Shown piece after piece: positions 10,099 to 40,304 of a DNA stretch of 64,000 nucleotides; position 1 is the stretch's first letter, and every line of letters begins with the position of its first letter. The position numbers and the translations under genes were made by a program. The DNA is from Macrostomum lignano (lineage: Eukaryota), in assembly GCA_002269645.1 (NCBI GenBank), contig NIVC01001591.1:1-64000 (forward strand), written 5' to 3'. The notes below the pieces were generated by a model that had not been told where the DNA came from, searched no databases, and saw only the letters and a list, made by a program, of their open reading frames with translations.

Positions 10099-13000
10099 TC
10101 AGTCAAAAACAACAAATTTAGCCACAAAGAAGCCAATAGTGTCATAGTTGCAAGCATTAGTAACGTCGCTAGCATCGTATGGCACTTCCGGATCGAATTT
10201 CTGCACCAAACCGACACTTCCGTCCGGTTGGTAAATACCAAAAGGCCGCAGGTTGGGAGTCTGTTCCACTAGTTTAAGGTTAGGCCAGTTCATCTGCAGA
10301 GCAAGGCTGACCTGCCGTTCGTTTTCTTCTGGTCTTGTTGTGCATGTGCTGTAGACAAGGAACCCGCCAGGCTTAACCAATTTAATGGCCTAAAAATTGG
10401 CAATACACAAATTAATAATAATAATCGATTACACCTGTTTTAATAGGCAGATATGCAACCGACAGCTTAGCCGCAGCTATTGCGCGGCGCATCTGAAGGC
10501 TGCGTACGGCTGTTCAGTCCAAGGACTGCTGGCACCCATTTTACAGCTGGGTGAACTGAAGCAATCCAGAGTCAAGTGTTTTGCTCAAGTCTACAAACTG
10601 TTCCAGTGGAATCGGGAATCGAACCCCCGACCTTCGAGTCGTGAGTCCGACGCTCTAACCACAGGGCTACAACCCCCTAATAATGCAAATCTCGCAGGCA
10701 AATATTAATCAAATTATATTATTAATTTACCTCACGAAACAATCGATTCTGTATTTGAGCATACGAACTCAACTGAGATGCAGTTTTGCTCAACTGACTA
10801 CTACTGTCTGATGACGTGAGTAGTCTAGGCCGCTGTCCCAGAGCGCTGCAGGGTGCATCCAGGAGAACACGATCAAACTGTTTAGGACGATACGGCGGCT
10901 TACTGTCAGGCTCGCCAGCGTCTGTCAAAAAATGATAGTAAATTTTCATCTGCTAATATTGCTACTGACAGTAGCACAGCTTAGACATGAAGATTTAAAT
11001 CAAGATTCAAAAGCCAAACACAGACCTGTTCCGTTATCATCGCACAGTCGACAAGCATCAAAACAATGAATTCGAAGAAAATTTTCGGTGTCAATACCCA
11101 ATTTGACAGCTTGTTCAGCAACTGTGTTTAACCGCTTTGCAGACTTGTCAATGGCGATTAGAGTGCCCTGTGGGAGATCAGGATTCTGTTAGCTCACAGA
11201 AGACTGGGCTAAATTGGGCAAGTGGCGGTGGCACAGCAACTGGGGATCTGGGAGGCTGGTGGCCCAGCAACTGGGGATCTGGGAGGCTGGTGGCCCAGCA
11301 ACTGAGGATCTGGGAGGCTGTCCCAGCAGCTGAGGATCTGGGAGGCTGGCCCAGCAACTGAAGATCTGGGAGGCTGGCCCAGCAACTGAGGATCTGGGAG
11401 GCTGGCACAGCAACTGAAGATCTGGGAGGCTGGTACAGCAACTGAGGATCTGGGAGGCTGGCGACACAGCAACTGAAGATCTGGGAGGCTGGCCCAGCAA
11501 CTGACACTCTGGAAGGCTGGTGGCCCAACAACTAGGGACCAATAAAATAAATAAATAAGTATATAAATTCACTGATAATGAATGAAGTATGGCACTCAAC
11601 CTATACAGCTTATAACTACAAACCTGCAACTGCATAAGGTCAGCCAGGTGCAGACATTTTCCGCCGGGAGCACAGCACATGTCTAGCACTGTCTGCCCAG
11701 GCTGCGCGTCCAATACTCGAGCGCACACCAACGAAGGCAGATTCTGGGCAACCAGATTGCCGGACTGGAACAGGCAGGACTGAAAGCTGGGACACACGAC
11801 TAAGGGTTGCGTCATGCGGACCGCTACACCACTGCGGGAACATTAAGAAGATTAACAATGCCCCTTTAATTATCGCCAAATACACATCAATGCAGTGTTA
11901 CAACCTAAACAACAGAATCTACCACTACAGTCTACAAAATATCTACCCTAAAAACTATACTACAGGCTACCCCGAAACCTACCACTACAATCTACCCCAA
12001 TACCTACCACTAAAATCTACCCCAAAACCTACCACTACATTCTACTCCAATATCTAAACTACAATCTACCCCAATACCTACCACTAAAATCTACCCCAAA
12101 ACCTACCACTACGTTCTACTCCAATACCTACAACTGCAATCTACCCCAATACCTACCACTAAAATCTACCTCAAAATCTACCACTAAAATCTACCCCCAA
12201 ACCTACCACTACATTCTACTCCAATATCTACAACTACAATCTACCCCAAAACCTACCACTACAATCTACCCCAATATCTACCACTACAATCTACCCCAAT
12301 ATCTACCACTACAATCTACCCCAATATCTACCACTACAATCTACCCCAATATCTACCACTACAATCTACCCCAATATCTACCACTACAATCTACCCCAAT
12401 ATCAAGTACTAGTATCTACTTAAATCTCTACTATAGGTATCTACCTGAGAAACCAATCTACCACCTAGAATATCGAAAGTCAGTTTAATTATATGAATTT
12501 ATGAAAGAAGCAGCTATAAAATTTACATTTAATGCATTCAATAAAAATAAAAGAATCAATTCCAAACCTATTTGAATGAATATCTCCAAGCAGCTGCTTC
12601 CGCTCCATCACCAGGAGTCCATTGCCAAGAAATCTAGTAGCTCCTGTGTAGGCTTTAGTGAACCCTGCATTGAATTTTTCTAAACAGGCGTAGACAGACA
12701 CTGGGCAGTCTTTGCTGGCACCTGGAGATCAGAATTATTGTAACTCAATGAGTAAAAAACAAATTGTAATAAAAATGTATGCCAACACTGCCTCATCATG
12801 GAACAGAATTCGAACCTGGCTCAATCCCAATCACTCCGCCGGCAAAAATATCGGATCCGCGAAGAACCGCGACTCCGCACAGAGGATCAACGTACAAGCG
12901 GGGGTGCGTCTGAGGTAGCTGAAATGGAAAACGCGCGCAAAAGTGCATTTTTAAGAGGCTGGTCTAGTAACTGAGGATCTGGGAGGCTGGCCCAGCAACT

Positions 13001-20421: not shown

Positions 20422-21685
20422 TTAAGCAGGTGATAGCTGCCCTGCTTGCTCCGAATTGTAATTTGTGTTCGATCTTATTCTTATTTCGCCTTTGCTGTCA
20501 TAGTGAGACAAAAAACGTTTCGCGCAAAGTTGGTGGTGTCCTGAAATACACATTGGTGTAGTGTGTGGGTAGAGATTGGGGTAAAGTGTGGGCAGAGATT
20601 GGGGTAGAGTGTGGGCAGAGATTGGGGTAGTGTGAGCAGAGATTGGGTAGAGATTGGGGTAGAGTGTGGGTAGAGATTGGGGTAGAGTGTGGGCAGAGAT
20701 TGGGTAGAGTGTGGGTAGAGAGTGGGGTAGAGTGTGGGTAGAGATTGGGGTAGAGTGTGGGTAGAGATTGGGGTAAAGTATGGGCAGAGATTGGGGTAGT
20801 GTGAGCAGAGATTGGGTAGAGTGTGGGCAGAGATTGGGGTAGAGTGTGGGCAGAGACTGATGTAGAGTGTGGGCAGAGATTGGGGTAGAGTGTGGGTAGA
20901 GATTGGGGTAAAGTATGGGCAGAGATTGGGGTAGTGTGAGCAGAGATTGGGTAGAGTGTGGGCAGAGATTGGGGTAGAGTGTGGGCAGAGATTGGGGTAG
21001 AGTGTGGGCAGAGATTGGGGTAGAGTGTGGACAGAGATTGGGGTAGAGTGTGGGCAGAGATTGGGGTAGAGTGTGGGCAGAGATTGGGGTAGAGTGTGGG
21101 CATGTTATCACAGAGATCTTCCGTTCTTCTAGCCCTGGTCGTAGCCTGCCCTCTAAATTGTCGCTATGGCAGTCAATTGCATTGTCTGTCACAATCTTTT
21201 TCTGCATTTAATGTACCCTCACGATCAGTATTGGAAAATCCTGGACGATCGGTACTTCCTCTTTCACTCTGCGGCCTGTTAAAAAGAGTGACTCAGAAGG
21301 CTGCATCCACGCGTAGTCACATACATTTTGGGTTCATTTGCAAAGTTTGGCGTCGCTAAAAGACCCATGAGAGCCAACAACCAAGACACAAGGTATACAT
21401 GCATGCACACCATGGCCTGCAGGAGGAGAATAGGATGAGAAAGCATCCCTTCTATGAGCTTGCCTGATGAGTTTGTGCGCATATTCGGGTAAAGTAGAAA
21501 GCCTTTGCAAACATAGAACTTAATGCAAGTCCATTAATCTTGTTTAAATTTACACCCTGACACATCCACTGTCAGGCGGTGTAAGCTTCTGGTAGCTGTT
21601 GGATCCGTTAAAATCCAGAAGCTTGTTTGCAAAGGAAAGAAGGATAAGACTGGGTAAACATTTCAAATCCGGCGGCAACTTCGCG
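20422..21685 (-). CDS. Unidentified multi-exon gene (3' exons)
   Basis: Chain of GT-AG-bounded segments 21502-21411, 21355-21325, 21275-21217, 20540-20422 that stays open after splicing (two frames possible), plus a further acceptor near 21686. No recognisable family. Confidence 0.35.
20560..21101. repeat. 23-bp G-rich minisatellite (GGGCAGAGATTGGGGTAGAGTGT)n, left arm
   Basis: About 23 copies; reverse complement of the array at 21968-23983. Confidence 0.95.
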
Positions 21686-21967
21686 CTGGAATGTTGACAG
21701 ACAGCTAAATTGCAATTTAACTTGCTGCTTTTCACACAGAATTTGCTGAGCCTGATTGCTCTGTCCTCCAATAATCCTATCGGTGGAAGTTACAATTACT
21801 TTAACTTCCTCAAGAATAGTTCAAATTATTAAATACTAGTTTTCTCTGACCTGTTTTCTTTATCTATATAGTTTCTCTCGCTTAGTGGATACTGATTATA
21901 ATTGGTAGTTCGCTGCCACCGGGTCCCAGGGTCACAAGTTATCCGAATCTCATGCTTTCAGAGTACA

Positions 21968-23983
21968 AATCTCTGCCCACACTCTACACCAGTCTCTGCC
22001 CACACTCTACCCCAATCTCTGCCCACACTCTACCCCAATCTCTGCCCACACTCTACACCAGTCTCTGCCCACACTCTACCCCAATCTCTGCCCACACTCT
22101 ACCCCAATCTCTGCCCACACTCTACCCCAATCTCTACTCACACTCTACCCCAATCTCTGCCCACACTCTACCCCAATCTCTGCCCACACTCTACCACAAT
22201 CTCTGCCCACACTCTACCCCAATCTCTGCCCACACTCTACCCCAATCTCTGCCCACACTCTACACCAATCTCTGCCCACACTCTACATCAGTCTCTGCCC
22301 ACACTCTACATCAGTCTCTGCCCACACTCTACATCAGTCTCTGCCCACACTCTACACCAATCTCTGCCCACACTCTACCCCAATCTCTGCCCACACTCTA
22401 CCCCAATCTCTGCCCACACTCTACCCCAATCTCTGCCCACACTCTACCCCAATCTCTGCCCACACTCTACATCAGTCTCTGCCCACACTCTACATCAGTC
22501 TCTGCCCACACTCTACATCAGTCTCTGCCCACACTCTACATCAGTCTCTGCCCACACTCTACATCAGTCTCTGCCCACACTCTACATCAATCTCTGCCCA
22601 CACTCTACATCAGTCTCTGCCCACACTCTACATCAGTCTCTGCCCACACTCTACATCAGTCTCTGCCCACACTCTACATCAGTCTCTGCCCACACTCTAC
22701 ATCAGTCTCTGCCCACACTCTACATCAGTCTCTGCCCACACTCTACATCAATCTCTGCCCACACTCTACATCAGTCTCTGCCCACACTCTACATCAGTCT
22801 CTGCCCACACTCTACATCAGTCTCTGCCCACACTCTACATCAGTCTCTGCCCACACTCTACATCAGTCTCTGCCCACACTCTACATCAGTCTCTGCCCAC
22901 ACTCTACATCAGTCTCTGCCCACACTCTACATCAGTCTCTGCCCACACTCTACATCAGTCTCTGCCCACACTCTACCCCAATCTCTGCCCACGCTCTACA
23001 TCAGTCTCTGCCCACACTCTACCCCAATCTCTTCCCACACTCTACCCCAATCTCTGCCCACACTCTACATCAGTCTCTGCCCACACTCTACCCCAATCTC
23101 TGCCCACACTCTACATCAGTCTCTGCCCACACTCTACCCCAATCTCTACCCACACTCTACCCCAATCTCTGCCCACACTCTACCCCAATCTCTGCCCACA
23201 CTCTACCCCAATCTCTGCCCACACTCTACATCAGTCTCTGCCCACACTCTACATCAGTCTCTGCCCACACTCTACATCAGTCTCTGCCCACACTCTACAT
23301 CAGTCTCTGCCCACACTCTACATCAGTCTCTGCCCACACTCTACATCAGTCTCTGCCCACACTCTACATCAGTCTCTGCCCACACTCTACATCAGTCTCT
23401 GCCCACACTCTACATCAGTCTCTGCCCACACTCTACATCAGTCTCTGCCCACACTCTACATCAGTCTCTGCCCACACTCTACATCAGTCTCTGCCCACAC
23501 TCTACATCAGTCTCTGCCCACACTCTACATCAGTCTCTGCCCACACTCTACATCAGTCTCTGCCCACACTCTACATCAGTCTCTGCCCACACTCTACCCC
23601 AATCTCTGCCCACACTCTACATCAGTCTCTGCCCACACTCTACCGCAATCTCTGCCCACACTCTACCCCAATCTCTGCCCACACTCTACATCAGTCTCTG
23701 CCCACACTCTACCCCAATCTCTACCCACACTCTACCCCAATCTCTGCCCACACTCTACATCAGTCTCTGCCCACACTCTACATCAGTCTCTGCCCACACT
23801 CTACATCAGTCTCTGCCCACACTCTACACCAATCTCTGCCCACACTCTACCCCAATCTCTGCCCACACTCTACATCAGTCTCTGCCCACACTCTACCCCA
23901 ATCTCTACCCACACTCTACCCCAATCTCTGCCCACACTCTACATCAGTCTCTGCCCACACTCTACATCAGTCTCTGCCCACGC
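21968..23983. repeat. 23-bp C-rich minisatellite (CTCTGCCCACACTCTACCCCAAT / ...ACATCAGT)n, right arm
   Basis: About 87 copies of two variants; explains the 715-aa and 694-aa ORF calls. Confidence 0.95.
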
Positions 23984-24064
23984 CCACCTCACATGCGGCC
24001 CGCGAAGTCTCTCTATCCGGCCGTCGGTTCCTTTAAAACTTCACAATAGCAATCCGATCCGCTC

Positions 24065-24230: not shown

Positions 24231-24378
24231 AGGGGTGGAGCAATCAATGCAGCGTATTGCTTAAAATATAAAGCAATTGTAATCATGAAAACTTAATCAA
24301 CGAAAAAATTAACCTGGTACTACGTAAGACAAAAATTTTATTTTTCGATCAGATTTAAATAATATTTTAATTCAATTT

Positions 24379-25080
24379 TGTTGGGCTGCGCCCTTCCAGT
24401 GTGTATGTACTCGTACTTTTGTTTTCAGTTTTCATGCCACCCCGCCCCGTCCCCCGTCTCGCGCCCGGGCCAGGGTTTGTGAGAGGCGTAAGTCTCAACC
24501 CTGGCCTAGCCCTTTGCACCCAGCCCCCGGCCCAATCTCTGTCCAATCTGGGTGCCCCCCCCCCTCCCTCGTTGCCCGCCTCACCCTGGGGCTGCTCGTA
24601 TTGGCTGGCTGGCTGATAAGCCGGCTGGGCCCCAGGGTTTGGCTCGCCGTCTCCATTCTGCCCCACCCCTCCCCCTTTTTTGTGTATTATTTAAATGCTA
24701 GCCCTGAGCGGGCTGCGCTCCACGTTTGCTCTCTATTGGTGTCCGCTTCGTTCTTACTGTTTTTGCGTTCATCGGCGTACCTCTGCCTTCGCGTGCCAAT
24801 AACTGCTTCGGGCCAATAAACGCTTCGTTAGTAACTCGATATATCAAGAGGAGGTGAGCTCGAGCTTTCGTTCTTCTGGGTTGCCGCGTGGGGCCGGGAT
24901 CTGCAGGGACCTGGGAACGGTGAACTCTCGCCGATCCCAGGGTGTTCGGTCAGGCGAACTCTCGCCGAACCGAGCGAGACAGGGTAGGAATAGCCGGGGT
25001 GAGGGCTGGGACCGGGGTGTCTCAGGCGGGGAGGGCCCGAACCTTGACCCGTCCAGCGGCCATTAGGCCGAGACACAACA
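24379..25080 (+). repeat. 5' LTR (702 bp)
   Basis: TGTTGGG...CACAACA; AATAAA at 24815-24820. By eye it differs from the 3' LTR only by a 3-nt indel and one C in a homopolymer. Confidence 0.97.
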
Positions 25081-25082
25081 AG

Positions 25083-25100
25083 TGGTGCCGTGACCAGGAT
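25083..25100 (+). promoter_or_regulatory. Primer-binding site, tRNA-His
   Basis: TGGTGCCGTGACCAGGAT, 2 nt after the LTR; its complement ATCCTGGTCACGGCACCA matches the 3' end of eukaryotic tRNA-His (...GTCACGGCA-CCA). Confidence 0.85.
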
Positions 25101-25204: not shown

Positions 25205-26185
25205 ATGGCCAATTTAGACGATCTGATTGACGCCCTGACGGCGCGTCTGCAAAACGAACTTAATGTGGCACAGCGGGTGCCGAGGCCAAATAAGTACGTG
25301 CCCACACAGGACTTTGCCCTTTGGATGCAACAATTCACAGGGTATTGTGAGGCGGCTCATATTCTAGGGGATCAGCGCAAGCAGGCGCTGCTCAGTCTGC
25401 TTGACTTTAATACTGCTTTTAAGGCTGTTGCGAATCTTGAGTTGGCCGATGATTTGCCGTATGATGAGTTTGTTGAGCAGCTAGAAGCTAGGTTTGATGA
25501 GAATAGGACTGCTCAAGATTACAAGACCGAGTTCCAGAGTAGGAATCAGAAAGATGGCGAGCCCATTGAAGAATATGCAGACGTGCTCAAGGAGCTTATG
25601 AGAAAATCGTACCCAATGCTGCCAGCGGCCCAGCGAGAAGAGTTGGTGAAAGACAGGTTTTTGAAGGGGATTCGGGTGCCAGCCCGGGTGCTGGAGAGCG
25701 TGCTGCTGCAAGCGCCAGAGACGCTCCAGGACGCTATTAGGCGGGTGCGTCAAGTGAGGGCATCGTTGGCTCTGATGGAGCCTGAGGGTAAGCGAGCTGT
25801 GCACATGGTGGGGGGTCAGGCCGCAGCGGCTGGCAACAGCCAGGAGTCCAGGGCAGCCGCCGAGATAGCAGCTCTGAAAGCGGAAGTGGCTCAGCTAAAA
25901 GCAAGTGCTGCAGCGCCCACTGCGCCGATGGCGACAGCAAGGTCTGAGCAGCCAAAAGTGAGCTTGCAGCATCGAGCCCCTGAGCAGAGTCAGCAGCAGA
26001 GGCAGTGTGGTCGGTGCCTGCAGACAGGGCATACTACGGCTCGGTGCCGTAATGCAGTGGTCTGCCGGGAGTGTGGCCAGTCAGGGCACATGCGCAACCG
26101 CTGCGATCGTCGGTGGGACCAGTCGGGTTCGGGAAACGGATTGGGGGCTCGGCCGGGGCACCCGTCCGGGCCCCAGCGTCAGTGA
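25205..26185 (+). CDS. gag: Gag with two CCHC zinc knuckles
   Basis: ATG at 25205 (GCCATGG context); capsid-like region; CGRCLQTGHTTARC and CRECGQSGHMRNRC. Confidence 0.93.
   Translation: MANLDDLIDALTARLQNELNVAQRVPRPNKYVPTQDFALWMQQFTGYCEAAHILGDQRKQALLSLLDFNTAFKAVANLELADDLPYDEFVEQLEARFDENRTAQDYKTEFQSRNQKDGEPIEEYADVLKELMRKSYPMLPAAQREELVKDRFLKGIRVPARVLESVLLQAPETLQDAIRRVRQVRASLALMEPEGKRAVHMVGGQAAAAGNSQESRAAAEIAALKAEVAQLKASAAAPTAPMATARSEQPKVSLQHRAPEQSQQQRQCGRCLQTGHTTARCRNAVVCRECGQSGHMRNRCDRRWDQSGSGNGLGARPGHPSGPQRQ
26131..26174 (+). promoter_or_regulatory. -1 programmed ribosomal frameshift signal (gag-pol)
   Basis: Heptamer G GGA AAC in gag phase at 26131-26137; about 7 nt downstream a GC-rich stem GGGGCTCGG...CCGGGCCCC with inner CGGG/CCCG. 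pol is in the -1 frame. Confidence 0.85.
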
Positions 26186-29100
26186 ATCCGGGTGCATCGG
26201 GGGCCGCGGCCTTGTCCCAGAGTGTGCTGAGTCGGCAGGGACTGGGCTATGTGGATGCACAGTTTAGGTTTGGGCCCCCGATTGCATGTCTGCTGGACAG
26301 CGGGGCCACCGTGTCGTTGTTAAGCAACCGTTTCCTGAAGTCTAGAAAAGCCGACATTGACTTATCGCCGAATTTGCCGAATTTTTCCGTTTTCGCTGCC
26401 AATGGGGAACCGATTGCTGTACATGGAATGGTGACGATGAAGTTTTCTGTTGGGGACACCGAGTTTTTGCACGAGTTCGCTGTGGTCGAGGAACTGGCTG
26501 TGGCATGTATTCTGGGCACTGACTTTTTCGTGAGACACGGGATGGCGATTGACTTTGCTAGGAATTGCTTGCAGACTGCATCCTGTGTGTATCCGTTTCG
26601 CTTATCAGCAGATAAGCCGCGTCTTTGCCGTCTGGTGCTGAGTCAGCCTGAGCAGTTCAATGCAGGTCAAGAGAAGGTGGTGCACGTCAGGTTGCAGAGA
26701 AGGGTTCCCTCTGGGGTTCAGTTCCTAGGCATTGTGGAGTCTGAGAGGAGAGTGAGTAACGAGCAGATGGTGGCCAGATCGGTACAGATGCCTGACGGGG
26801 ACGGTCGCTTGGCTGTCAGGGTGTTGAACACGTCAGGATGCAGTCTGTCATTAAGGAAGGGAAGCCGAATTGGTTGGTTCTCCCCAGTGGCGGCCCAGCA
26901 GCCAGCTGGGTGGCAGGTGAACTCGGTGGAGAGTGTCCGAGACGACTGGAACCCCCTCAGCGATGTCAAGGAGTGGGGAGGATGTGGCCTGACGGGCGAT
27001 GAGAAGCACGAGTTTGAGCGCCTGATGGCTCGGAATCGTGATGTCTTTGCCAGGGATAGCTCGGAGTTGGGACAGTCACACTTGATGGCGCATGAGATTG
27101 ACACCGGCAACGCCAAGCCAGTAAGTCAGCCCGCGCGTAGGATTCCACCGCGCTGGAAGGAGGAAATTGATAAGCAGGTTGATGAGTTGTTGCAGCAGGA
27201 TCGCATCTATCCCTGCTACTCTCCGTGGGCGAGCCCGATCGTGCCGGTTAAAAAGGCCGACGGTAGCTTGAGGTTGTGTCTAGACTATCGGCGCCTTAAC
27301 GAGGTCACAGTGCCAGATCCTTACCCACCGCCGCGGATGGACGAGACGCTTGATGCGCTAGGAGGGAACTGTGTTTTCTCGACGATGGATCTGGCCTCCG
27401 GCTATCATCAGTGCCCGATTGAGCCGAAGGACCAGTTGAAAACGGCGTTCGTGGTACCCAACAGGGGTCAGTTCGCCTGGAAGTGCATGAGTTTTGGCTT
27501 GCGCAATGCTCCCGCTACGTTCGCCAGGCTAATGTCTATGGCCCTGTCTGAGGTTAACTGGAAGGAGTGCCTGGTGTACTTTGACGATATAGTCGTGTTC
27601 GCCAAGTCGGTGGGTCAGCATCTCGAGCGATTGAAGCATGTTTTCCAGTGCCTGAGGGATGCCAATGTCAAGCTGAAGCCCGCCAAGTGTGTGTTCCTCG
27701 CAGAGCGGGTGAAGTTTCTGGGCCACATCGTCTCTCAGGAGGGGATCGCAACGGACCCGAGCAAGTGCGAGGAGATCCAGAATTGGCCGAGGCCATGTAG
27801 CGCCAAGAAGGTGCAGGCATTCCTGGGTACGTGCGCCTACTATCAGTCATTTATCCCGCAGTTTTCGGAGATTGCAGCGCCGCTGTATAGGTTAACCGCA
27901 GACGGAGTGAAGTTTGAGTGGGGTAGTGAAGAGGAGAGTTCGTTTTGCAGGCTGAAAGACGCTTTGTGTTCACCGAATGTGATGGCATTCCCGGATTTTT
28001 CGCCTGGTGCCGGGGAGTTCATCCTCGACACGGACGCCAGTTCGCGCGTCGGGCTGGGAGCCGTCCTGTCACAGCGTCAAGCAGATGGCCGTGAGAAGGT
28101 GATCGCTTACGGGTCTAGGATGATTCATGCGGCGGAGAAAAATTATTGCACCACCAGGTTAGAGTTGCTTGCCGTCGTGCACTTCGTCAAAAAGTATAGG
28201 TACTATTTGTTAGGTAGAAAGTTCACTGTTCGTTCAGACCACAAAGCTTTGCAGTGGCTAGCCAGTCTGAAGGACGTAGAGGGTCAGTGCGCAAGGTGGC
28301 TTGAGTCGCTCCAGAACTTCGACTTTGAGATCATTCACAGGCCAGGCAAGGAGCACGGCAACGCTGATTCGCTGTCTCGCAAGTACCGAAAACACGCTGG
28401 CCATGAGAGCTGCCCTAGCTGCCAGTTTAGCGAGAATGTGCCAGTAGTGAACGCGGTGTTTGGCAGTGGGCTGTCTTCGAAGGAAGTCCAGCAGGCGCAA
28501 GTGGCCGAGAAGAAGCTTGCAGCTGTCCGCTCCTATGCCCTGGACCCGGGTTCGAACCCCAGTGCGCCTAGAGTGATGTCGTGGGAGGAGCGTGTGCTGT
28601 GGGCACAACGGCAGCTGATAAGAGTAGAGTCTGATCTGTTGTATTTTCAGAGTCCCGGGAGTGGGTGCCAGAAAAAGATCTTGCTGCCGCCGGCTTTGCT
28701 GCCGAAAGTGCTCAGTGAGCTTCATGATGGGGTTGCAGGAGGGCACCTTGGGGTTAGGAAGACACAAGAGAAAGTGAAGGCGAGATACTGGTGGCCGGGG
28801 CTGAGTCGTTCCGTGGAAGAGTATTGCCGGAGCTGTGTCCACTGTGCGAAGGCGAAGCCTGGGCGCAGCAACCGGGCGCCTTTGCAGCCAATCTGCTCGG
28901 AAGGAGCTTTCCAGAGGATCATGAGTGACATTGTCGGGCCGTTGCCCAAGTCCAGAGGTGGCAATCGATTCGTGCTGACAATCCAGGATTCTTTTACTAA
29001 GTGGCCGGTGGCGGTGCCCTTGTCCAATCAGCGAGCCCCGACGGTGGCGCGAGCGATTTTTGATCACTGGATTGCGCACTTTGGTTGTCCTGAATTTCTA

Positions 29101-30068
29101 GTCACCGATAAGGGCACCAATTTTGAGTCGGCTTTGATGAAGCAGTTGTGTCGGTTGCTTGCCGTTAAGAAATGCAGAACGTCCTCCTATCACCCGATGG
29201 CTGATGGTCAGGCTGAGAGTTTCAATAAGACGTTGAAGTCAATGATCAAGTGCAGGATGAGTGAGTCGGTGGGCGAAGGAGACTGGGAGGATCTGATCCA
29301 CCCGTCTCTCATGGCGTACCGTAGCAGCGTTCACAGAGGCACGGGGTACACCCCGTACTACATGCTGTACGCCAGGGAGATGCGGCTTCCAGTGGACATC
29401 GGAACCTTGCCTGAGTCCATTCCTGCCAGTGCTCCGGCGTATGTTCAGTCATTAGGTAATAGTCTGGCTGAGGCTCATTCGCAGGTGCGGACCAACCTGC
29501 AGCAGTACCAGAGGAAACAGAAAGTGCTGTACGACTCAAGGGTGCGAGGCCCGGCCATAGAAGTGGGGATGCCGTCCTAGAATACTCGCCTGCGCTGCAG
29601 GCAGGGGAGGCAGCCAAGTTCCATTGCAATTGGAAGGGGCCGGCGAAGGTGTTAGAGAAGATATCCGATTTGAATTACCGGGTAAAGCACGCCAATAGGG
29701 GAAAGAGCAAAATAGTGCATTATAATAATTTGCGAAAAGTACCCGAGCGGCCTGAGCAGTTCAGGTTGATGAATAGGCATACGGCAGTGCAGCGCCGGTC
29801 GGCGCATCCGCCTGAGCCGGCAGGGTGCAGACAGGAGCCCGCGGGGCCGGCGACTAAAGAGCCGGAACTTGAGGAGGAGGAGGAGTTTTACTCGTATGTG
29901 GTGCCACCAGTTGCCGTTGGGCCTCGGCATGGGATAGTAGGGCCGGGAACGCCAGTTGCGCCATGCGCACCGGTGGCTCCAGCGGCGCCAGCCGTGTCTC
30001 CGCGCAGACTGCGCGAGCGTCGGGGTGTGCCCCCAGCGTATTACGGGAATCCGGTATTGTATCGTTAA
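26131..30068 (+). CDS. pol: Pol polyprotein (protease, RT, RNase H, integrase with GPY/F-like tail)
   Basis: LLDSGAT protease; YFDD RT; FILDTDAS RNase H; HHCC and DDE integrase (IMSD, LVTD, QAESFN). The stop at 29580 is removed by +1 G in the run at 29565-29568, joining WKGP-containing ORF 29649-30068. Confidence 0.95.
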
Positions 30069-30405
30069 TTCGCAGTGGGCTCACAAGGCGGTCGTCATAA
30101 ATTGATTTTTAATATGCACTTGTATTAATGCCTCCACGCTGTTGTCTATGGTAGAAAGCCTAAAATAACCTAAAATGAAAAAAATGATACAACCCCAAAG
30201 CACAAAAAAATCATAAAATGGAACGCATGGAAAGCACGTAAAAAACATTAAATGTATTAAAATTACAAAGTATGCTAGGCAAGAAGCGTTCTCAATCGTA
30301 TTGTAAAATAAACATGTCATAGGATGGGTCAGGTCAGGGTCACAGTTGCTAGTCCGCAAGGCATAGGTAGTGATTGGGTTTAAATGTCATCATTGCAGGA
30401 GGACC

Positions 30406-32081
30406 ATGTCGTCGCCAACGACACCGACTGATTTGTATGGCGTGTTAGGCGTGGGTCGGACTGCTAACTCTGCGGAGATTGAGGCAGCGTGTAGTCGTCT
30501 GTACTCAAAGCGGCCCCGCGTCTGTCCTGCCGAGGTAGAGTCTCCGGAGTCTCAGCGAGACGTGATGGCGATGTGCGTTTTATCTGACCCAGTGTTTCGG
30601 GAAGTATACGATCGGGTTGGGGAGGCAGCGTGTCAAGGGGTGTTAAAGTACGCCTACTTTTTCAATCCTCCCCCTGACGTTGAGTTGCCCGAGCAGGTCA
30701 GGTTAGCTTTGGCTAGTCTTAAGGGAAGCGCCGCAGGGGAAGCTCCAGTTCACGCGGAGATCCCAGCCGAGTTATTGGCTCCGGCTGCGCTTGCTGAGTG
30801 TAGGCGGCTGAGGGGTGCGCTGCTGGCGCGGTTGAGGGCTGGGGATAGTGAAGGAGCTTGCCTGGTGGTTCAGGAGGTGGCGAGGTTTCTTGATGGGGCT
30901 GGTGTGAGTGTGCCTGAGCAGTTGTCTAGATTCTTAGCAGTGTCTGTGTCGTTTCTGTGCAATCAGTATGGGCGGAAGAGAGGTTCTGGTGGTGGCTCCG
31001 GGAGGTGTCGGAGGGTCCCGCCTTCGGTGCTGCAGGCGGCGTTTGAGTGCGTGTTGTTGGCTGTGCGGGGTTTTGAGCTGTGTGAGTTGGGGGGTCCCTT
31101 GTTGGGGAGGCTCCGGGGTCTGTCTCTCTTAGTGGATCCTGGCCTCGCGCGGCGCCCGGAGGAGGGGAGTGACGGGCCGCACCTTTCGCAGACTCCGCTG
31201 ACGGCCCAGCGCGACTTGGCGACCGAAGAGTTAACGGGTGTCGACCCCGAGCAAGTACGACCGGCCGACACGGTCCAGGAGGTCTCCCCCGTGACGACCC
31301 GAATCAGCGCAAGGTCAGCTCGGCTAAGCGTCTCGTCGATGCAAAGGCATACCTAACGAGGCTGGGCCGGTCGATTCAGCCCGAGGACCTTCGTGGCGTG
31401 CGTCGATGTCTAGCGGCTGTAAACTCGCCGTACTGCCTGCGTCTAGAATGTCCCGTTGTCCGACCACTGCTGCAAGACCGACGGATCGTGTTCGCCCTGG
31501 GCCTGAAGGCCAGTGCTGCACCGTGGTGGCCATCGCTGCGAGACGATGTACGACGATTTCTAGCGGGTAGCTGGCCGCGTGTCGTGGCGGTCGGCGAAGT
31601 CGAGCTCAATTGGGACGCTGAGAGGTCGCAGCGCCAGGACCAGTTAACGGCGGCGATGGAGCAGTTCTTGCTTGCCAAGGAGTTCGGCCTGCCGGTTTTG
31701 TTCCGAGTTGAAGGCGGCGAACCTGCCTGGGCGGTCGCCCTAGGATTCCTCCGGCAGCCGGAGTTTCAAGCGATGAGCGTCATGCTGGCCGAGGACCTGG
31801 ACTTGCCGGAGGCCGTCGAGGCCGCGCTGGTGAGCAAGTGCCACGGGGTCTTCTTCGAGGTGTCCGCTCGGTGCCGAGGATCCCCGCGAGCGGTCCAACG
31901 GGCTAAGCGTCTCCCGCGGCAGCGCCTGCTAGTGACATCGGCCGCACCGTTTGGTGGAGACCCCAAGGACCCGACAGCCATCAAGTTCGTGCCGGAAGCC
32001 CTAGCGGACAGTGAATGTGATCGCAGGTACTGGACTCGACTGTTTGCGACCAACTGTAGTAGATTTTTTGGCCGATTGTAG
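30406..32081 (+). CDS. ORF3: degenerate J-domain plus helical linker plus TatD-like TIM barrel (about 558 aa after one +1 correction)
   Basis: DLYGVLGV...EIEAA...VLSDPVFREVYDRVG is J-domain-like. LVDAKAYL, ALGLKAS, VVAVGEVELNW, AKEFGLPVLF, LPRQRLLVTSAAPF, NCSRFF follow the TatD motif order. ATG at 30406 (ACCATG). Frames join with +1 C at 31286-31290. Confidence 0.8.
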
Positions 32082-32309: not shown

Positions 32310-32321
32310 GGAGGGGGAGGA
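32310..32321 (+). promoter_or_regulatory. Polypurine tract
   Basis: GGAGGGGGAGGA immediately before the 3' LTR. Confidence 0.9.
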
Positions 32322-33019
32322 TGTTGGGCTGCGCCCTTCCAGTGTGTATGTCGTACTTTTGTTTTCAGTTTTCATGCCACCCCGCCCCGTCCCCCGTCTC
32401 GCGCCCGGGCCAGGGTTTGTGAGAGGCGTAAGTCTCAACCCTGGCCTAGCCCTTTGCACCCAGCCCCCGGCCCAATCTCTGTCCAATCTGGGTGCCCCCC
32501 CCCTCCCTCGTTGCCCGCCTCACCCTGGGGCTGCTCGTATTGGCTGGCTGGCTGATAAGCCGGCTGGGCCCCAGGGTTTGGCTCGCCGTCTCCATTCTGC
32601 CCCACCCCTCCCCCTTTTTTGTGTATTATTTAAATGCTAGCCCTGAGCGGGCTGCGCTCCACGTTTGCTCTCTATTGGTGTCCGCTTCGTTCTTACTGTT
32701 TTTGCGTTCATCGGCGTACCTCTGCCTTCGCGTGCCAATAACTGCTTCGGGCCAATAAACGCTTCGTTAGTAACTCGATATATCAAGAGGAGGTGAGCTC
32801 GAGCTTTCGTTCTTCTGGGTTGCCGCGTGGGGCCGGGATCTGCAGGGACCTGGGAACGGTGAACTCTCGCCGATCCCAGGGTGTTCGGTCAGGCGAACTC
32901 TCGCCGAACCGAGCGAGACAGGGTAGGAATAGCCGGGGTGAGGGCTGGGACCGGGGTGTCTCAGGCGGGGAGGGCCCGAACCTTGACCCGTCCAGCGGCC
33001 ATTAGGCCGAGACACAACA
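32322..33019 (+). repeat. 3' LTR (698 bp)
   Basis: Near-identical copy of 24379-25080. Confidence 0.97.
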
Positions 33020-33438
33020 ATTTTGACTAATTTCTCTCTATCTCAGTTGAAGATCCTTGAAACCTGTAGGTAAGGTAGTTTGAAATTCTTTTAACAAAAA
33101 ATTGACGATAAAAAATGAAAAATCATGCTGTATGAGTTGGCTATAGCTTCCAATCAGGAAATTCAGTAAAACAAATATTACCCGCACAAGCATTGAACAA
33201 TTTCCGGTCGTGACACAGAAAATTAATCATTGTTTATAAAACCCTAAACTGAAAAAAAAATATTCTCCCACACCAAAAATATATATTTGATTCAAACTGG
33301 TAGCTTCAAATATCGAAATTACAGTAAATAGCAAAACTTGAGTTACCAGCTGACAGTTCAACGTGGCAATGACCTGCAATTTCATTATATGGACAATAGT
33401 TTTATTGGCTGGCAGAGAGTCTAACGCTTATCCTGCAG

Positions 33439-33648
33439 TGTCGACAGATCCTACGGACAGCGATAACGTGGGTAGCGGGGCCGCTGGCGGGGCGGCACCT
33501 TCGTGTACAGGAGCAACGACAGTCGCCTTCTGGTTGCCGCAGGCGGTGGCGGAGCAGCCGCGGTGCTCCGGCAGCGGCTGCAGCGCCACGACGGGCGGCA
33601 GCACGGTTGACGCCGGCAGAGCCGTCCTGACACCCGTCGGTCAGGAAC
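33439..33648 (+). other. GC-rich exon-like segment of an unidentified gene
   Basis: Preceded by CTAAC branch-like motif and CCTGCAG; open frame; a further 23-nt acceptor/donor-bounded segment at 33047-33069. Strand and frame not certain. Confidence 0.3.
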
Positions 33649-34200
33649 TGTGCGTCTGATGAGGCTCAGAGTCTGTGTGATGTCAGTTCTGAGTCTGATG
33701 AGGCTCAGAGTCTGTGTGATGTCAGTCAGGAACTGTGCGTCTGATGAGGCTCAGAGTCTGTTTGATATCAGTTCTGAGTCTGATGAGGCTCAGAGTCTGT
33801 GTGATGTCAGTCAGTCAGGAGCTGTGAGTCTGATGAGGCTCAGAGTCTGTGTGATGTCAGTCAGTCAGGAACTGTGAGTCTGATGAGGCTCAGAGTCTGT
33901 GTAATGTCAGCTCTGAGTCTGATGAGGCTCAGAGTCTGTGTGATGTCAGTCAGTCAGGAGCTGTGCGTCTGATGAGGCTCAGAGTCTGTGTGATGTCAGT
34001 CAGTCAGGAGCTGTGAGTCTGATGAGGCTCAGAGTCTGTGTGATGTCAGTCAGTCAGGAGCTGTGAGTCTGATGAGGCTCAGAGTCTGTGTGATGTCAGT
34101 CAGTCAGTAGCTGAGTCTGATGAGGCTCAGAGTCTGTGTGATTTTAATCAGTCAGGAGCTGTGAGTCTGATGAGGCTCAGAGTCTGTGCGATGTCAGTTA
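33640..34200. repeat. 40-50-bp minisatellite (GTCTGATGAGGCTCAGAGTCTGTGTGATGTCAGTCAGTCAGGAGCTGTGA)n
   Basis: About 12 tandem copies. Confidence 0.92.
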
Positions 34201-35785: not shown

Positions 35786-36102
35786 AGCCTAAAGCGTTGA
35801 ATATTGGAGTTAAAATTTCTTTAGTTTTAATTGCAATATATGCAGATTGGTTATCTGTCTTAGTCCCGTAATGGTCATTTCGAGTCACGACTTTATATAT
35901 GAACAATAAATTCATTAGATATAATCTTTTATTTCTATACTATAGATGCCCCAGTAGAAATTCTGTTGAAATTTTTCTCTATTGTGATGTCACGAGCTCA
36001 ATAAGGTAGAAAGTTTATCGCTATGGAGATCAAACGTTACGATGTATAGGGGTCCGAAGACTTACGAGAAAATAATTCTACTCAAATTTAGCTCCGGTGT
36101 GG

Positions 36103-39100
36103 CATAAGAATGGCACTCCTTTAATAAGAATGGCACTCCTTTAATAAGAATGGCACTCCTTTAATAAGAATGGCACTCCTTTAATAAGAATGGCACTCCT
36201 TTAATAAGAATGGCACTCCTTTAATAAGAATGGCACTCCTTTAATAAAAATGGCATCCCATTTATAAGAATGGCACTCCTTTAATAAGAATGGCACTATT
36301 TTAATAAGAACGGCACTCCTTTAATAAGAATGGCACTCCTTTAATAAGAATGGCACTCCTTTAATAAGAATGGCACTCCTTTAATAAAAATGGCATCCCA
36401 TTTATAAGAATGGCACTCCTTTAATAAGAATGGCACTATTTTAATAAGAACGGCACTCCTTTACTAAGAATGGCACTCTTTTAATAAGAATGGCACTCCT
36501 TTAATAAGAATGGCACTCCTTTAATAAGAATGGCACTCCTTTAATAAGAATGGCACTCCTTTAATAAGAATGGCACTCCTTTAATAAGAATGGCACTCCT
36601 TTAATAAGAATGGCACTCCTTTAATAAGAATGCCACTCCTTTAATAAGAATGCCACTCCTTTACTAAGAATGCCACTCCTTTAATAAGAATGGCACTCCT
36701 TTAATAAGAATGGCACTCCTTTAATAAGAATGGCACTCCTTTAATAAGAATGGCACTCCTTTAATAAGAATGGCACTCCTTTAATAAGAATGGCACTCCT
36801 TTAATAAGAATGGCACTCCTTTAATAAGAATGGCACTCCTTTAATAAGAATGCCACTCCTTTACTAAGAATGCCACTCCTTTAATAAGAATGGCACTCCT
36901 TTAATAAGAATGGCACTCCTTTAATAAGAATGGCACTCCTTTAATAAGAATGGCACTCCTTTAATAAGAATGGCACTCCTTTAATAAGAATGGCACTCCT
37001 TTAATAAGAATGGCACTCCTTTAATAAGAATGCCACTCCTTTACTAAGAATGGCACTCCTTTAATAAGAATGGCACTCCTTTAATAAGAATGGCACTCCT
37101 TTAATAAGAATGGCACTCCTTTAATAAGAATGGCACTCCTTTAATAAGAATGGCACTCCTTTAATAAGAATGGCACTCCTTTAATAAGAATGGCACTCCT
37201 TTAATAAGAATGGCACTCCTTTAATAAGAATGGCACTCCTTTAATAAGAATGGCACTCCTTTAATAAGAATGGCACTCCTTTAATAAGAATGGCACTCCT
37301 TTACTAAGAATGGCACTCCTTTACTAAGAATGGCACTCCTTTAATAAGTATGGCACTCCTTTAATAAGAACGGCACTCCTTTACTAAGAATGGCACTCCT
37401 TTAATAAGAATGGCACTCCTTTACTAAGAATGGCACTCCTTTAATAAGAACGGCACTCCTTTACTAAGAATGGCACTCCTTTAATAAGAATGGCACTCCT
37501 TTACTAAGAATGGCACTATTTTAATAAGAACAGCACTCCTTTACTAAGAATGCCACTCCTTTACTAAGAATGCCACTCCTTTAATAAGAATGGCACTCCT
37601 TTAATAAGAATGGCACTCCTTTAATAAGAATGGCACTCCTTTAATAAGAATGGCACTCCTTTAATAAGAATGGCACTCCTTTAATAAGAATGGCACTCCT
37701 TTAATAAGAATGGCACTCCTTTAATAAGAATGGCACTCCTTTAATAAGAATGGCACTCCTTTAATAAGAATGGCACTCCTTTAATAAGAATGGCACTCCT
37801 TTAATAAGAATGGCACTCCTTTACTAAGAATGGCACTCATTTACTAAGAATGGCACTCCTTTAATAAGAATGGCACTCATTTACTAAGAATGGCACTCCT
37901 TTAATAAGAATGGCACTCATTTACTAAGAATGGCACTCATTTACTAAGAATGGCATTCCTTTAATAAGAATGGCACTCCTTTAATAAGAATGGCACTCCT
38001 TTAATAAGAATGGCACTCCTTTAATAAGAATGGCACTCCTTTAATAAGAATGGCACTCCTTTAATAAGAATGGCACTCCTTTAATAAGAATGGCACTCCT
38101 TTAATAAGAATGGCACTCCTTTACTAAGAATGGCACTCCTTTACTAAGAATGGCACTCCTTTAATAAGAATGGCACTCCTTTAATAAGAATGGCACTCCT
38201 TTAATAAGAATGGCACTCCTTTAATAAGAATGGCACTCTTTTACTAAGAATGGCACTCCTTTAATAAGAATGGCACTCCTTTACTAAGAATGGCACTCCT
38301 TTAATAAGAATGGCACTCCTTTAATAAGAATGGCACTCCTTTACTAAGAATGGCACTCCTTTAATAAGAATGGCACTCATTTACTAAGAATGGCACTCCT
38401 TTACTAAGAATGGCACTCCTTTAATAAGAATGGCACTCCTTTACTAAGAATGGCACTCCTTTAATAAGAATGGCACTCCTTTAAAAAGAATGGCACTCCT
38501 TTAATAAGAATGGCACTCCTTTAATAAGAATGGCACTCATTTACTAAGAATGGCACTCCATTAATAAGAATGGCACTCCTTTAATAAGAATGGCACTCCT
38601 TTAATAAGAATGGCACTCCTTTACTAAGAATGGCACTCCTTTAATAAGAATGGCACTCATTTACTAAGAATGGCACTCCTTTACTAAGAATGGCACTCCT
38701 TTAATAAGAATGGCACTCCTTTACTAAGAACGGCACTCCTTTAATAAGAATGGCACTCCTTTACTAAGAACGGCACTCCTTTAATAAGAATGGCACTCCT
38801 TTACTAAGAATGGCACTCCTTTAATAAGTATGGCACTCCTTTAATAAGAATGGCACTCCTTTACTAAGAATGGCACTCCTTTAATATGAATGGCACTCCT
38901 TTAATAAGAATGGCACTCCTTTAATAAGAATGGCACTCATTTACTAAGAATGGCATCCCATTTATAAGAATGGCACTCCTTTAATAAGAATGGCACTATT
39001 TTAATAAGAACGGCACTCCTTTACTAAGAATGGCACTCTTTTAATAAGAATGGCACTCCTTTAATAAGAATGGCACTCCTTTACTAAGAATGGCACTCCA

Positions 39101-39240
39101 TTAATAAGAATGGCACTCCTTTACTAAGAATGGCACTCCATTAATAAGAATGGCACTCATGTAATAAAAATGGCAATCCTTTAATAAAAATGGCACTCCA
39201 TTAATAAGAATGGCACTCCTTCAACAAAATGGCACTTCTA
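36103..39240. repeat. 20-bp minisatellite (AATAAGAATGGCACTCCTTT)n, about 3.1 kb
   Basis: About 155 copies in perfect 20-bp register; followed by related AAAAATGGCACCCGTAGATAA units to about 39415. Confidence 0.97.
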
Positions 39241-40304
39241 AAAAATGCCTCTTCTTAAAAACATGGCCCCCGTAGATAAAAAAATGGCACCCGTAGATAA
39301 AAAATGGCACCCGTAGATAAAAAATGGCACCCGTAGATGAAAAATGGCTCCAGTAGATAAAAAAATGGCACCAGTAGATAAAAAATGGCACCAGTAGATA
39401 AAAAATGGCACTCCTAATACAAAAAGCTGTCAGTAAAATCTAAAGAAATCCAGAAAGAGAGTTTGAATCTAACAAAAACAATGAAAAATATATGATCAAC
39501 TGGTCCCAGTGTAGTAAACAGCGAGCGTGTTTTCCTGGAGCAACAATGCTTCATTTCTATCTTCATCATATTAATTATCAATGCACCTGTCATTAAATAA
39601 TAACAACATGCTAAAATTTATTTATGACCCACGATTTTGAAAACACTTTACAACTATAAGCTAGCGCCTATATGCCTGCTTGTATTGCAGCAAGCACAGC
39701 GACTCTCTGTGTGGTTGGGGTTGGGGTTGGGGGGCGCGGTCTGCACTCATGACCGGCTGTGGATGCAGCCATTGTATGCGCGAAGCAAACACACACACAG
39801 AACAGCCTATGCATGGGACTCTGTAGTCTTTGCCTAAATATATATTTAATTTACTCGATGGCTTTTATCTTCTTTATATAGTATGATAATAAAGGGCCAG
39901 TCTGCATGTATTAGGATTTACCTTGCATAACCTAACTATATGCAGCCTAACTATATACAGCTTATTCAACATTGCGCGTACATAAGTAAAATTCCTGTAC
40001 AACATTGCCACGGTACTCGCCTGCTGACTCATTGACTTACGAGTATTTGGTGTCAGAATTTACTATCTGTTACATGACGTCTATGGTCCATACCCCTAGA
40101 CCCCCCTATAGAGATCCACTCTTATAAAGTCCCATGTTGAATGTGCAATCTGAATGTTTTTTAGCTTGGATGACCTCTTTTAATTTAGTTAGTTTGGTGC
40201 CCAATATTTCCTTTAATTTTGGTGCTCAGTAAAATCTATGGTCCCCCTACCCCAGCTTGTGATCCGTTATGGAAATCAATAGTTTTGCTTCAGGGCGACA
40301 AAAT

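What the first reader, a model, noticed from the sequence alone, without database searches (positions are those of the whole stretch)
31332..32081. The TatD-like domain looks like a pseudo-nuclease: five of six canonical metal ligands replaced
By eye alignment to the TatD consensus: DxHxH reads DAKAY; GvHP reads GLKA; GE.GLD reads GEVELN (Glu kept); P..iH.R reads PVLFRVE; vlHcF reads VMLAE; ETDaP reads TSAAP. The structural positions survive while the His/Asp ligands are lost. Inference: a fold kept for nucleic-acid or protein binding rather than catalysis, for example capping cDNA ends or acting as a decoy for host nucleases.
Basis: partly seen in the sequence, partly recalled or inferred. 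Interest (0 to 1): 0.72.

Follow-up and report, generated by a model that had tools for sequence, protein, structure and literature searches.

The report
Dead TatD barrel in flatworm retrotransposon
A recently inserted flatworm retrotransposon carries an extra gene built from two borrowed protein folds, a TatD DNA-cutting enzyme and a chaperone J-domain, each missing its working residues, which suggests the element keeps them as binding modules rather than as enzymes.

Summary
Confirmed. Window 31332-32081 encodes a full-length TatD-family barrel (34.9 bits against at most 4.3 for shuffles). Five of six class II metal ligands are replaced: H5>K, H7>Y, H125>R, H153>A, D204>A. The bridging E89 is kept. 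The GxHP His and the ETD Glu are also gone, and the domain has only one His, so no other alignment can restore the His ligands.

The barrel is the 3' part of a third gene of a very young Ty3/Gypsy element, most likely of Macrostomum lignano. Its 5' part is a J-domain that lacks HPD. Two other copies carry the same residues. A 50%-identical relative (P0004) shows the same losses at the four lost sites it covers, so the state is old.

Caveats: the retained Glu is the one residue human TATDN1 needs; new acids (E154, D155, E176) are shared with P0004; the first two motif assignments rest on global alignment only; loss is not significantly concentrated at the active site (p=0.11); this copy changes frame before the barrel; there are no expression or activity data.

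Best reading: a non-catalytic accessory protein, comparable to Cer1 CERV. cDNA capping and decoy roles are untested. I found no report of TatD in an LTR element.

The parts
31332..32081 (+). TatD-like TIM barrel with replaced metal ligands (P0001, 249 aa); 3' part of the third gene; lies in the open frame 31173-32081; no ATG in this frame ahead of the barrel start
31338..31352 (+). Strand-1 motif D-A-K-A-Y at the DxHxH position (H5>K, H7>Y); assignment from global alignment only
31500..31511 (+). G-L-K-A at the GxHP position (H59>K, P60>A); assignment from global alignment only
31593..31610 (+). GEVELN at GExGLD; bridging Glu E89 kept, also in P0004
31704..31706 (+). R125 in place of the strand-5 His; Arg also in P0004, His in 47 of 47 canonical rows
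31725..31766 (+). Residues 132-145, the stretch best conserved between P0001 and P0004 (13 of 14 identical) and largely unlike canonical TatD; candidate new binding surface (inference)
31788..31796 (+). A153-E154-D155 at the strand-6 HCF position; His lost; E154 and D155 are new acids shared with P0004
31857..31859 (+). E176 at the end of strand 7; new acid shared with P0004
31935..31949 (+). T-S-A-A-P at ETDxP (E202>T, D204>A; A and G in P0004)
30406..31356 (+). 5' part of the third gene (316 aa from ATG): J-like domain, then a region with no Pfam match, then a linker; overlaps the barrel frame in 31173-31356, where the reading frame changes in this copy
30430..30651 (+). J-like domain without HPD (reads K-R-P-R-V at about 30508-30522); best sequence match DNAJB13, E=4.3e-6
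30904..31191 (+). In-frame 288-nt stretch with GT..AG ends that two gene models (P0002, P0003) leave out; possible intron, no transcript evidence seen
24379..25080 (+). 5' LTR (702 nt, TG..CA) with TATA-like 24688, AATAAA 24815 and a splice-donor-like site at 24854; 4-bp target duplication ATTT at 24375-24378
25083..25100 (+). Primer-binding-site-like stretch starting TGG, 2 nt after the 5' LTR; primer tRNA not tested
25205..26185 (+). gag (Retrotrans_gag E=9.5e-5, two CCHC knuckles)
26053..29580 (+). pol: protease, RT, RNase H, integrase, in that order
29472..30068 (+). Integrase C-terminal part in another frame (pol is broken in this overlap)
30381..30408 (+). Splice-acceptor-like site (exon start 30399) just ahead of the ATG at 30406; gene model P0014 joins LTR sequence to this point
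32310..32321 (+). Polypurine tract
32322..33019 (+). 3' LTR (698 nt); 0 substitutions and 4 gap columns against the 5' LTR; target duplication ATTT at 33020-33023

Best explanation
The barrel is a catalytically dead TatD. It forms the C-terminal domain of one accessory protein of a Ty3/Gypsy family (J-like domain without HPD, middle region, pseudo-TatD). SHOWN: TatD homology, loss of the ligands, place between pol and the 3' LTR, presence in other copies, and the same degenerate state in a 50%-identical relative. INFERRED: (a) the gene is made from a spliced subgenomic RNA (LTR donor to an acceptor before the ATG); (b) copies with an uninterrupted frame make the whole protein; (c) without the His cluster and the strand-8 acids the two-metal site cannot form, and Lys/Arg at positions 5, 59 and 125 beside the kept Glu leave a basic, metal-free pocket; (d) the domain binds nucleic acid, most likely the element's own RNA or cDNA, or a host protein through its new conserved surface, and so helps export, protection or trafficking, as CERV does for Cer1. 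I put about 0.85 on no TatD-type catalysis, about 0.7 on the fold being kept for a function, and much less on any one ligand.
For: Ligand table; single His; E201A and D203A inactivate E. coli TatD and H62A reduces it (PMC4176340); D218A lowers TATDN3 30-fold (PMC10085689). Identical motifs in P0002 and P0003. P0004 covers residues 85-246 and has E kept, H>R, H>S, E>A, D>G, so the loss predates 50% divergence while the frame and core stayed intact. P0003 runs from the 5' part into the barrel with no residue skipped. The J-domain has also lost HPD. Net charge +7, against -2 to -21 in 47 of 47 canonical rows. Donor, acceptor and gene model P0014 fit a spliced RNA. Precedent: CERV, a spliced accessory protein with a G-protein-like domain that lacks hydrolysis residues, is needed for Cer1 RNA export (PMC10309623).
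Against: No activity, binding or expression data. Active-site columns kept 1 of 8 against 13 of 28 other conserved columns, Fisher p=0.11, so selective loss is not shown. E89 is kept, and single His or Asp mutants of TATDN1 stay active. The window copy and P0002 change frame before the barrel; 1 of 3 copies seen is continuous. The positive charge lies in residues 1-84, which P0004 lacks: by hand count residues 85-249 are about -1 in both proteins, and a GC-rich gene favours Arg. The genomic setting of P0004 is unknown. The confident model (pLDDT 90.8) was driven by 47 TatD rows; the single-sequence model was poor and matched nothing.
Confidence: 0.55

Rival explanations
1. Rewired enzyme: the His-based site was replaced by an acidic Mg-type site (E89 with E154/D155 and E176, R125 holding the phosphate), so the domain is still a nuclease or another hydrolase.
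For: E89, R125, E154, D155 and E176 are all shared by P0001 and P0004, and apart from E89 occur in under 10% of the 47 canonical rows. They lie at strand ends 4-7, the side where TatD ligands sit (secondary structure). The bridging Glu is the key residue in TATDN1/3. Migrated catalytic residues are known in pseudoenzymes (PMC10211241).
Against: Both strand-8 acids, essential in E. coli TatD, are gone. Arg at the metal-B His position should repel a cation; an Arg-Glu salt bridge filling the pocket explains the same residues (inference). Side-chain geometry could not be inspected, as no coordinates were available.
Confidence: 0.13
2. Decoy: the protein mimics host TatD and a host J-protein and competes for their partners or substrates, blunting a nuclease or chaperone pathway that limits the element.
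For: Two host-type folds, both stripped of their working motif. TatD can be a defence nuclease (QatD, PMC13434339 abstract). Viral pseudoenzymes act by competition (PMC7605207 abstract).
Against: Identity to canonical TatD is only 17-29%, and the best-conserved surface is family-specific rather than TatD-like, which is not what mimicry predicts. None of my searches showed animal TatD restricting retrotransposons.
Confidence: 0.12
3. Passenger: a captured TatD fragment that is decaying without function; its frame is open only because the insertion is young.
For: Loss at active-site columns is not significantly above background (p=0.11); 2 of 3 copies change frame before the barrel; residues 1-80 are unrecognisable alone; there are no relatives beyond P0002-P0004 in 1.84 billion representatives. 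Rotifer ORF3s showed no clear departure from neutrality (PMC5408684).
Against: P0004 differs at half its residues yet keeps an unbroken 166-aa frame, fold residues and a 13-of-14 identical block. The barrel is full length, ending in the terminal N..R.F motif. GC by codon position (0.70/0.49/0.68) is like gag and pol. pol is also broken in this copy, so such breaks may be copy- or assembly-specific.
Confidence: 0.12
4. Already dead when captured: P0004 is a host (or other cellular) pseudo-TatD, and the element took the domain from such a gene; the function would then be a host one that the element borrowed.
For: The source and neighbourhood of P0004 are unknown. An unrelated degenerate TatD exists (P0006: GE>GS, H>E, H>R, D>G), so dead TatDs arise outside elements.
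Against: P0004 starts inside strand 4, as expected for a called fragment of a longer or spliced gene; this does not decide the matter. P0006 has lost the Glu and is much closer to bacterial TatD (116 bits against 35), so it looks independent.
Confidence: 0.08

Closest known systems
TatD family, class II (S. aureus and E. coli YcfH, YjjV, human TATDN3) and class I (E. coli TatD, TATDN1)
   Same: Full-length barrel, GE motif, Q..LA.E..LP, RLL..S..P and terminal N..R.F; best PDB matches by sequence profile (2gzx, E=3e-5) and by model (6l25, Z 28.8, rmsd 2.1, 236 aligned; the model was TatD-guided).
   Different: No HxH and no (G/A)xN; no GxHP His; no strand-5 or strand-6 His; no ETD acids; basic overall; attached to a J-like domain inside a retrotransposon.
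CERV of C. elegans Cer1 (PMC10309623, passages read)
   Same: Accessory protein of an LTR retrotransposon, made from a spliced RNA, with an enzyme-like fold that lacks catalytic residues.
   Different: Its fold is G-protein-like, not TatD; no homology was tested or is implied; its export role is shown, ours is only inferred.
Bdelloid rotifer LTR-element ORF3s: DEDDy exonuclease and GDSL esterase (PMC5408684, passages read)
   Same: A nuclease-fold third ORF in place of env.
   Different: Other folds; their catalytic residues are reported intact in the LTR elements; shared among several element types.
Pseudonucleases Ssd1/Dis3L2 (PMC8097288, abstract), Maelstrom and EXD1 (as described in PMC5408684)
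   Same: Nuclease fold kept for RNA binding after the active site was lost.
   Different: Host genes, other folds.
DNAJB13/RSP16 and class B J-proteins
   Same: Best sequence match of the J-like part, including the stretch after the J-domain; the matched DNAJB13 chains also lack the canonical HPD.
   Different: No C-terminal DnaJ domains were detected; descent from DNAJB13 was not tested.
QatD (PMC13434339, abstract)
   Same: A TatD fold recruited into host-parasite conflict.
   Different: Active, bacterial and on the host side; matches to QatD models are only E=0.07-0.09.

Membership tests
TatD family (homology) | Sequence match to TatD profiles above chance | tested here: met
   Pfam E=7.2e-6 (26 bits, gathering score 27 not reached); 34.9 bits against at most 4.3 for shuffles; HH probability 98%
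TatD family (homology) | Full (beta/alpha)8 barrel like solved TatD | tested here: inconclusive
   Alignment-led model pLDDT 90.8, TM 0.83 to 6l25, Z 28.8, but led by TatD rows; single-sequence model pLDDT 38.8 with no match
Active TatD nuclease, class II | N-terminal HxH | tested here: not met
   K5, Y7; no His before residue 171
Active TatD nuclease, class I | N-terminal (G/A)xN | tested here: not met
   KAY at that position; no Asn in residues 1-30
Active TatD nuclease | Bridging Glu (E. coli E91, TATDN1 E112) | tested here: met
   E89, also in P0004
Active TatD nuclease | Strand-5 and strand-6 His (H127, H152) | tested here: not met
   R125 and A153; R and S in P0004
Active TatD nuclease | Strand-8 ExD acids (E201, D203) | tested here: not met
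   T202, A204; A and G in P0004
Active TatD nuclease | GxHP His (H62 / H77) | tested here: not met
   K59; no His in the region in any register
Active TatD nuclease | Metal-dependent 3'-5' exonuclease and AP-endonuclease activity | not testable with these tools
   needs purified protein
Pseudoenzyme (pseudonuclease) | Enzyme fold lacking conserved catalytic motifs by sequence | tested here: met
   7 of 8 active-site columns replaced; definition as in PMC10211241
Pseudoenzyme (pseudonuclease) | No migrated catalytic residues, no activity | tested here: inconclusive
   E154, D155, E176 are new and shared with P0004; geometry could not be inspected
Pseudoenzyme (pseudonuclease) | Kept by selection rather than decaying | tested here: inconclusive
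   P0004 conservation is for it, Fisher p=0.11 is neutral; no DNA of relatives for dN/dS
Ty3/Gypsy LTR retrotransposon | Paired TG..CA LTRs, target duplication, PBS, PPT | tested here: met
Ty3/Gypsy LTR retrotransposon | gag, then pol in the order PR-RT-RH-IN | tested here: met
Ty3/Gypsy clade (Mag, CsRN1, Gmr1/Osvaldo, Mdg3) | Placement in an RT tree | not tested
   no reference RT set was held and no tree could be built
Functional J-domain co-chaperone | HPD motif between helices II and III | tested here: not met
   K-R-P-R-V against Q-Y-H-P-D-V of DnaJ2
QatD anti-phage nuclease | QatD profile score, HxH, qat operon | tested here: not met
   12 bits against a cut-off of 230; no HxH; animal retrotransposon context

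The most novel reading that the evidence does not exclude
An animal LTR retrotransposon encodes a double-decoy counter-defence protein: a dead TatD barrel that clamps cDNA or RNA ends (or AP sites) against host TatD-type nucleases, carried by a dead J-domain that holds off or redirects Hsp70. That would point to animal TatD nucleases as restriction factors for retroelements, echoing QatD in bacteria, and would be testable in a transgenic flatworm model.
Probability: 0.12. Interest if true: 0.85.

Novelty: new variant of a known kind. Interest (0 to 1): 0.55.

Why it matters
Extra genes of LTR elements that are not env are mostly unexplained. This one has two recognisable folds, each with its working motif removed, in a family young enough to have LTRs with no substitutions and in a host with transgenic tools. 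It gives a natural, apparently long-kept catalytically dead TatD, which I did not find described in the library searched. It can be used to ask what TatD folds do besides cutting DNA, and whether host TatD nucleases act on retrotransposon intermediates.

Tried and rejected
Word-index homologue search with the barrel alone: 0 of 2630 candidates. 'Shorter' search with the J-to-barrel region of P0002: 2 of 8000 scored. 'Longer' search with P0001+P0004: 1 of 8000 scored, P0002 only; both were capped at 8000 candidates, so absence is weak evidence. Single-sequence fold: pLDDT 38.8, no Foldseek match at E<=0.001; not used. N-terminal 80 residues alone: not above chance. Test for loss concentrated at the active site: not significant. 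Genome scan aimed at the degenerate P0006: 80 loci kept of 83, best-segment identity to P0006 at most 42%; the 66 of 80 with a motif-bearing frame had GExGLD, so no close relative of P0006 and no context for it was obtained. PADLOC and QatD: only weak matches. Tree of the barrel among TatDs, and charge over matched regions: not obtained (searches gave no result), so bacterial versus host origin is open; the PDB ranking (S. aureus YcfH 26.9 bits, TATDN3 21.2, TATDN1 17.6) is too close to decide. Perfect three-unit heat-shock element in the LTR: none by pattern. 'Post-insertion decay of this copy' rejected: the LTRs have 0 substitutions and the ligand states are the same in P0002 and P0003. 'One-off capture at this site' rejected: P0002, P0003 and P0014 each join the gene to LTR-derived sequence, and the non-element parts of P0002 and P0003 do not match the window. 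No complex prediction was run, because no binding pair is claimed.

Full report
THE OBSERVATION. It lies in an open frame of 302 codons, 31173-32081. Pfam gives one family, TatD_DNase, at E=7.2e-6 and 26 bits, one bit under the gathering score. NCBIfam gives TIGR00010 at E=3.8e-5, and the three ESM Atlas rows listed are TatD clusters at 0.93. Against a profile of 47 canonical TatD proteins it scores 34.9 bits; the best of 1000 shuffles (419 reported) scores 4.3. Profile-profile alignment gives 98.2-98.9% probability over 242 columns.

THE REFERENCE SET. The 47 are 4 hits and 43 of the 80 loci. I dropped 37 loci: 14 had no GExGLD frame by my pattern, 12 had an unclear start, and 11 were near-duplicates or had long insertions. 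Because the set was picked by the GE and DxHxH patterns, its conservation at those columns is partly by construction. The strand-3, -5, -6 and -8 columns were not selected for.

LIGANDS. In the alignment the six class II ligands read H5>K, H7>Y, E89 kept, H125>R, H153>A, D204>A. The phosphate-binding GxHP His is Lys (K59) and the ETD Glu is Thr (T202). The canonical rows have His at 59, 125 and 153, Glu at 202 and Asp at 204 in 47 of 47. One argument does not depend on alignment: the domain has a single His (H171), against 6-16 in each canonical protein. Two limits apply. Residues 1-80 alone are not above chance (140 of 1000 shuffles reached the real score), so the first two motif assignments rest on global alignment. 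The strand-6 register is uncertain by one residue. An alignment-led AlphaFold model has pLDDT 90.8 and matches TatD structures first (TM 0.83 to 6l25; Z 28.8, rmsd 2.1 over 236 residues), but it was driven by TatD rows. The single-sequence model was poor (38.8) and matched nothing.

WHAT THE LOSSES MEAN. In E. coli TatD, E91A, E201A and D203A are inactive, H62A is much reduced, and H127A and H152A stay active (PMC4176340; passages and section 13). The barrel lacks the equivalents of E201, D203, H62, H127 and H152 together. In human TATDN1 only E112A cut both activities significantly, D222A and E220A did not, and class I enzymes work without HxH; TATDN3 D218A fell 30-fold (PMC10085689; passages and sections 14, 15). 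So the one ligand kept here is the most important one, and 'five of six' is a class II count. No tested enzyme in these two papers lacks all these residues at once, so TatD-type two-metal catalysis is unlikely (inference, about 0.85).

CONTEXT. The barrel sits in a Ty3/Gypsy element. Its LTRs are 24379-25080 and 32322-33019, with 0 substitutions and 4 gap columns, a 4-bp target duplication, a PBS-like stretch and a polypurine tract. gag and pol (PR-RT-RH-IN) are recognised by Pfam, with the integrase tail in another frame. Between pol and the barrel is a 316-aa ORF from ATG 30406. Its first 80 residues are a J-domain (best PDB match DNAJB13, E=4.3e-6) in which HPD reads K-R-P-R-V; the rest has no Pfam match. 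That J-proteins need HPD to stimulate Hsp70 is recalled, not from a call. This ORF overlaps the barrel frame in 31173-31356, and the barrel frame has no ATG before the barrel starts. The LTR has a TATA-like box, AATAAA and a donor-like site at 24854, and an acceptor-like site lies 7 nt before the ATG. Gene model P0014 joins exactly these two points, but that is a prediction, not a transcript. P0002 (99% over the barrel) and P0014 (100% over the J-like start) are named Macrostomum lignano in UniRef, so the window is most likely from that species.

RELATIVES. An exhaustive search of 1.84 billion representatives gave 12 hits, 3 of them under E=1e-30. P0002 and P0003 are gene models that contain other copies: their non-element parts do not match the window and they carry the same motifs. 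P0003 passes from the 5' part into the barrel with no residue skipped, whereas P0002 changes frame as the window does. So 1 of 3 copies is continuous, and whether the breaks are real or assembly errors was not testable. P0004 (166 aa, 50% identical, source unknown) covers residues 85-246. It keeps the Glu and has H>R, H>S, E>A and D>G. It shares 39 residues with P0001 that are rare in canonical TatD, among them R125, E154, D155, E176 and most of the block 132-145. P0006 is a separate degenerate TatD that has lost even the Glu. A scan of bacterial and archaeal genomes found no close relative of it. Viral and metagenome contig collections were not searched, and the sources of P0003-P0013 stayed unknown.

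RESULTS AGAINST A TIDY STORY. Active-site columns kept 1 of 8 against 13 of 28 other conserved columns (Fisher p=0.11), so selective loss of catalysis is not shown statistically. The net charge of +7 (canonical -2 to -21) comes from residues 1-84; by hand count residues 85-249 are about -1 in both P0001 and P0004, and Arg is favoured in a GC-rich gene. The shared new acids leave a rewired site possible. No tree was obtained, so the donor (host TATDN or bacterial) is open; PDB profile scores are too close to decide.

MECHANISM. Most likely the third gene makes one accessory protein from a spliced RNA. Its TatD barrel can no longer hold the metal pair, has Lys/Arg where His was, and serves as a binding module for the element's RNA or cDNA or for a host partner. 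The nearest precedent is CERV of C. elegans Cer1, a spliced accessory protein with a G-protein-like domain that lacks hydrolysis residues and is needed for genomic RNA export (PMC10309623; passages). Rotifer LTR elements carry DEDDy exonuclease and GDSL esterase third ORFs, reported with intact catalytic residues (PMC5408684; passages). Pseudonucleases that bind RNA are known (PMC8097288; abstract). Rivals: rewired active site 0.13, decoy 0.12, decaying passenger 0.12, captured already dead 0.08.

NOVELTY. Full-text searches for TatD with LTR retrotransposon (2 papers) and TatD with gypsy and transposable elements (1 paper), and broader searches, showed no title or abstract on TatD or a J-domain in an LTR element; I saw these as listings only. 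'TatD' and 'DnaJ' occur 0 times in the main text of the M. lignano LTR paper (PMC12801592; passages, section 7, supplement 1), of DARTS (PMC8775202) and of the metazoan errantivirus survey (PMC13524379). The one TatD passage in PMC6962438 is unrelated. Supplements 2-5 of PMC12801592 could not be read, and the earlier classification paper it cites, Repbase and subscription journals were not seen; any of these could already note the domain. I saw abstracts only for PMC13434339 and PMC7605207, and passages of PMC10211241.

VERDICT. The domain is a TatD homologue but not a member of the active TatD nucleases by motif, and the finding is larger than first stated, since the same gene also carries an HPD-less J-domain. 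It is a new variant of a known kind (enzyme-derived accessory genes of LTR elements), with function unshown. Interest 0.55.

Noticed in passing
window 30430-30651: The J-domain of the same gene lacks HPD; its best match, DNAJB13, also lacks the canonical motif in the chains shown.
   Followed up: partly
window 29472-29580 and 31173-31356: Both pol and the third gene change frame in this copy although the LTRs have no substitutions; real mutation or assembly error not resolved.
   Followed up: partly
window 30904-31191: In-frame stretch with GT..AG ends that two gene models drop; it is also an open reading stretch, so two protein forms are possible.
   Followed up: partly
window 24815-24860: A splice-donor-like site lies 39 nt after AATAAA in the LTR, the layout that (recalled) suppresses 5' polyadenylation in some retroviruses.
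   Followed up: no
P0006: A second, apparently independent degenerate TatD close to bacterial TatD (116 bits) with GS for GE and all seen ligands replaced; no close relative found in the genome scan.
   Followed up: partly
window 26053-26185: gag and pol overlap by about 130 nt in different frames; the recoding signal was not looked for.
   Followed up: no
window 3457-5198: DEG/ENaC (Pfam ASC) channel gene in two overlapping frames.
   Followed up: no
window 11192-11842 (-), 49714-50421 (+), 56497-59815 (-), 18082-18591 (+): Host exons: RsmB/F-type RNA methyltransferase, TraB/PrgY family, PAP2 phosphatase, weak PAN domain.
   Followed up: no
window 20949-24050 and 35965-39300: Long minisatellite arrays flank the element: 23-nt units with an inverted block at 20949-21102, and 20-nt units; a further array at 33636-34199.
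   Followed up: no
window 10607-10676 (-): Weak Rfam tRNA match (33.6 bits, E=0.003) that ARAGORN does not call.
   Followed up: no
L025, L027, L028, L037, L038, L041, L045, L047, L051, L057: Bacterial TatD frames of about 457-465 aa, that is about 200 extra C-terminal residues; not identified.
   Followed up: no
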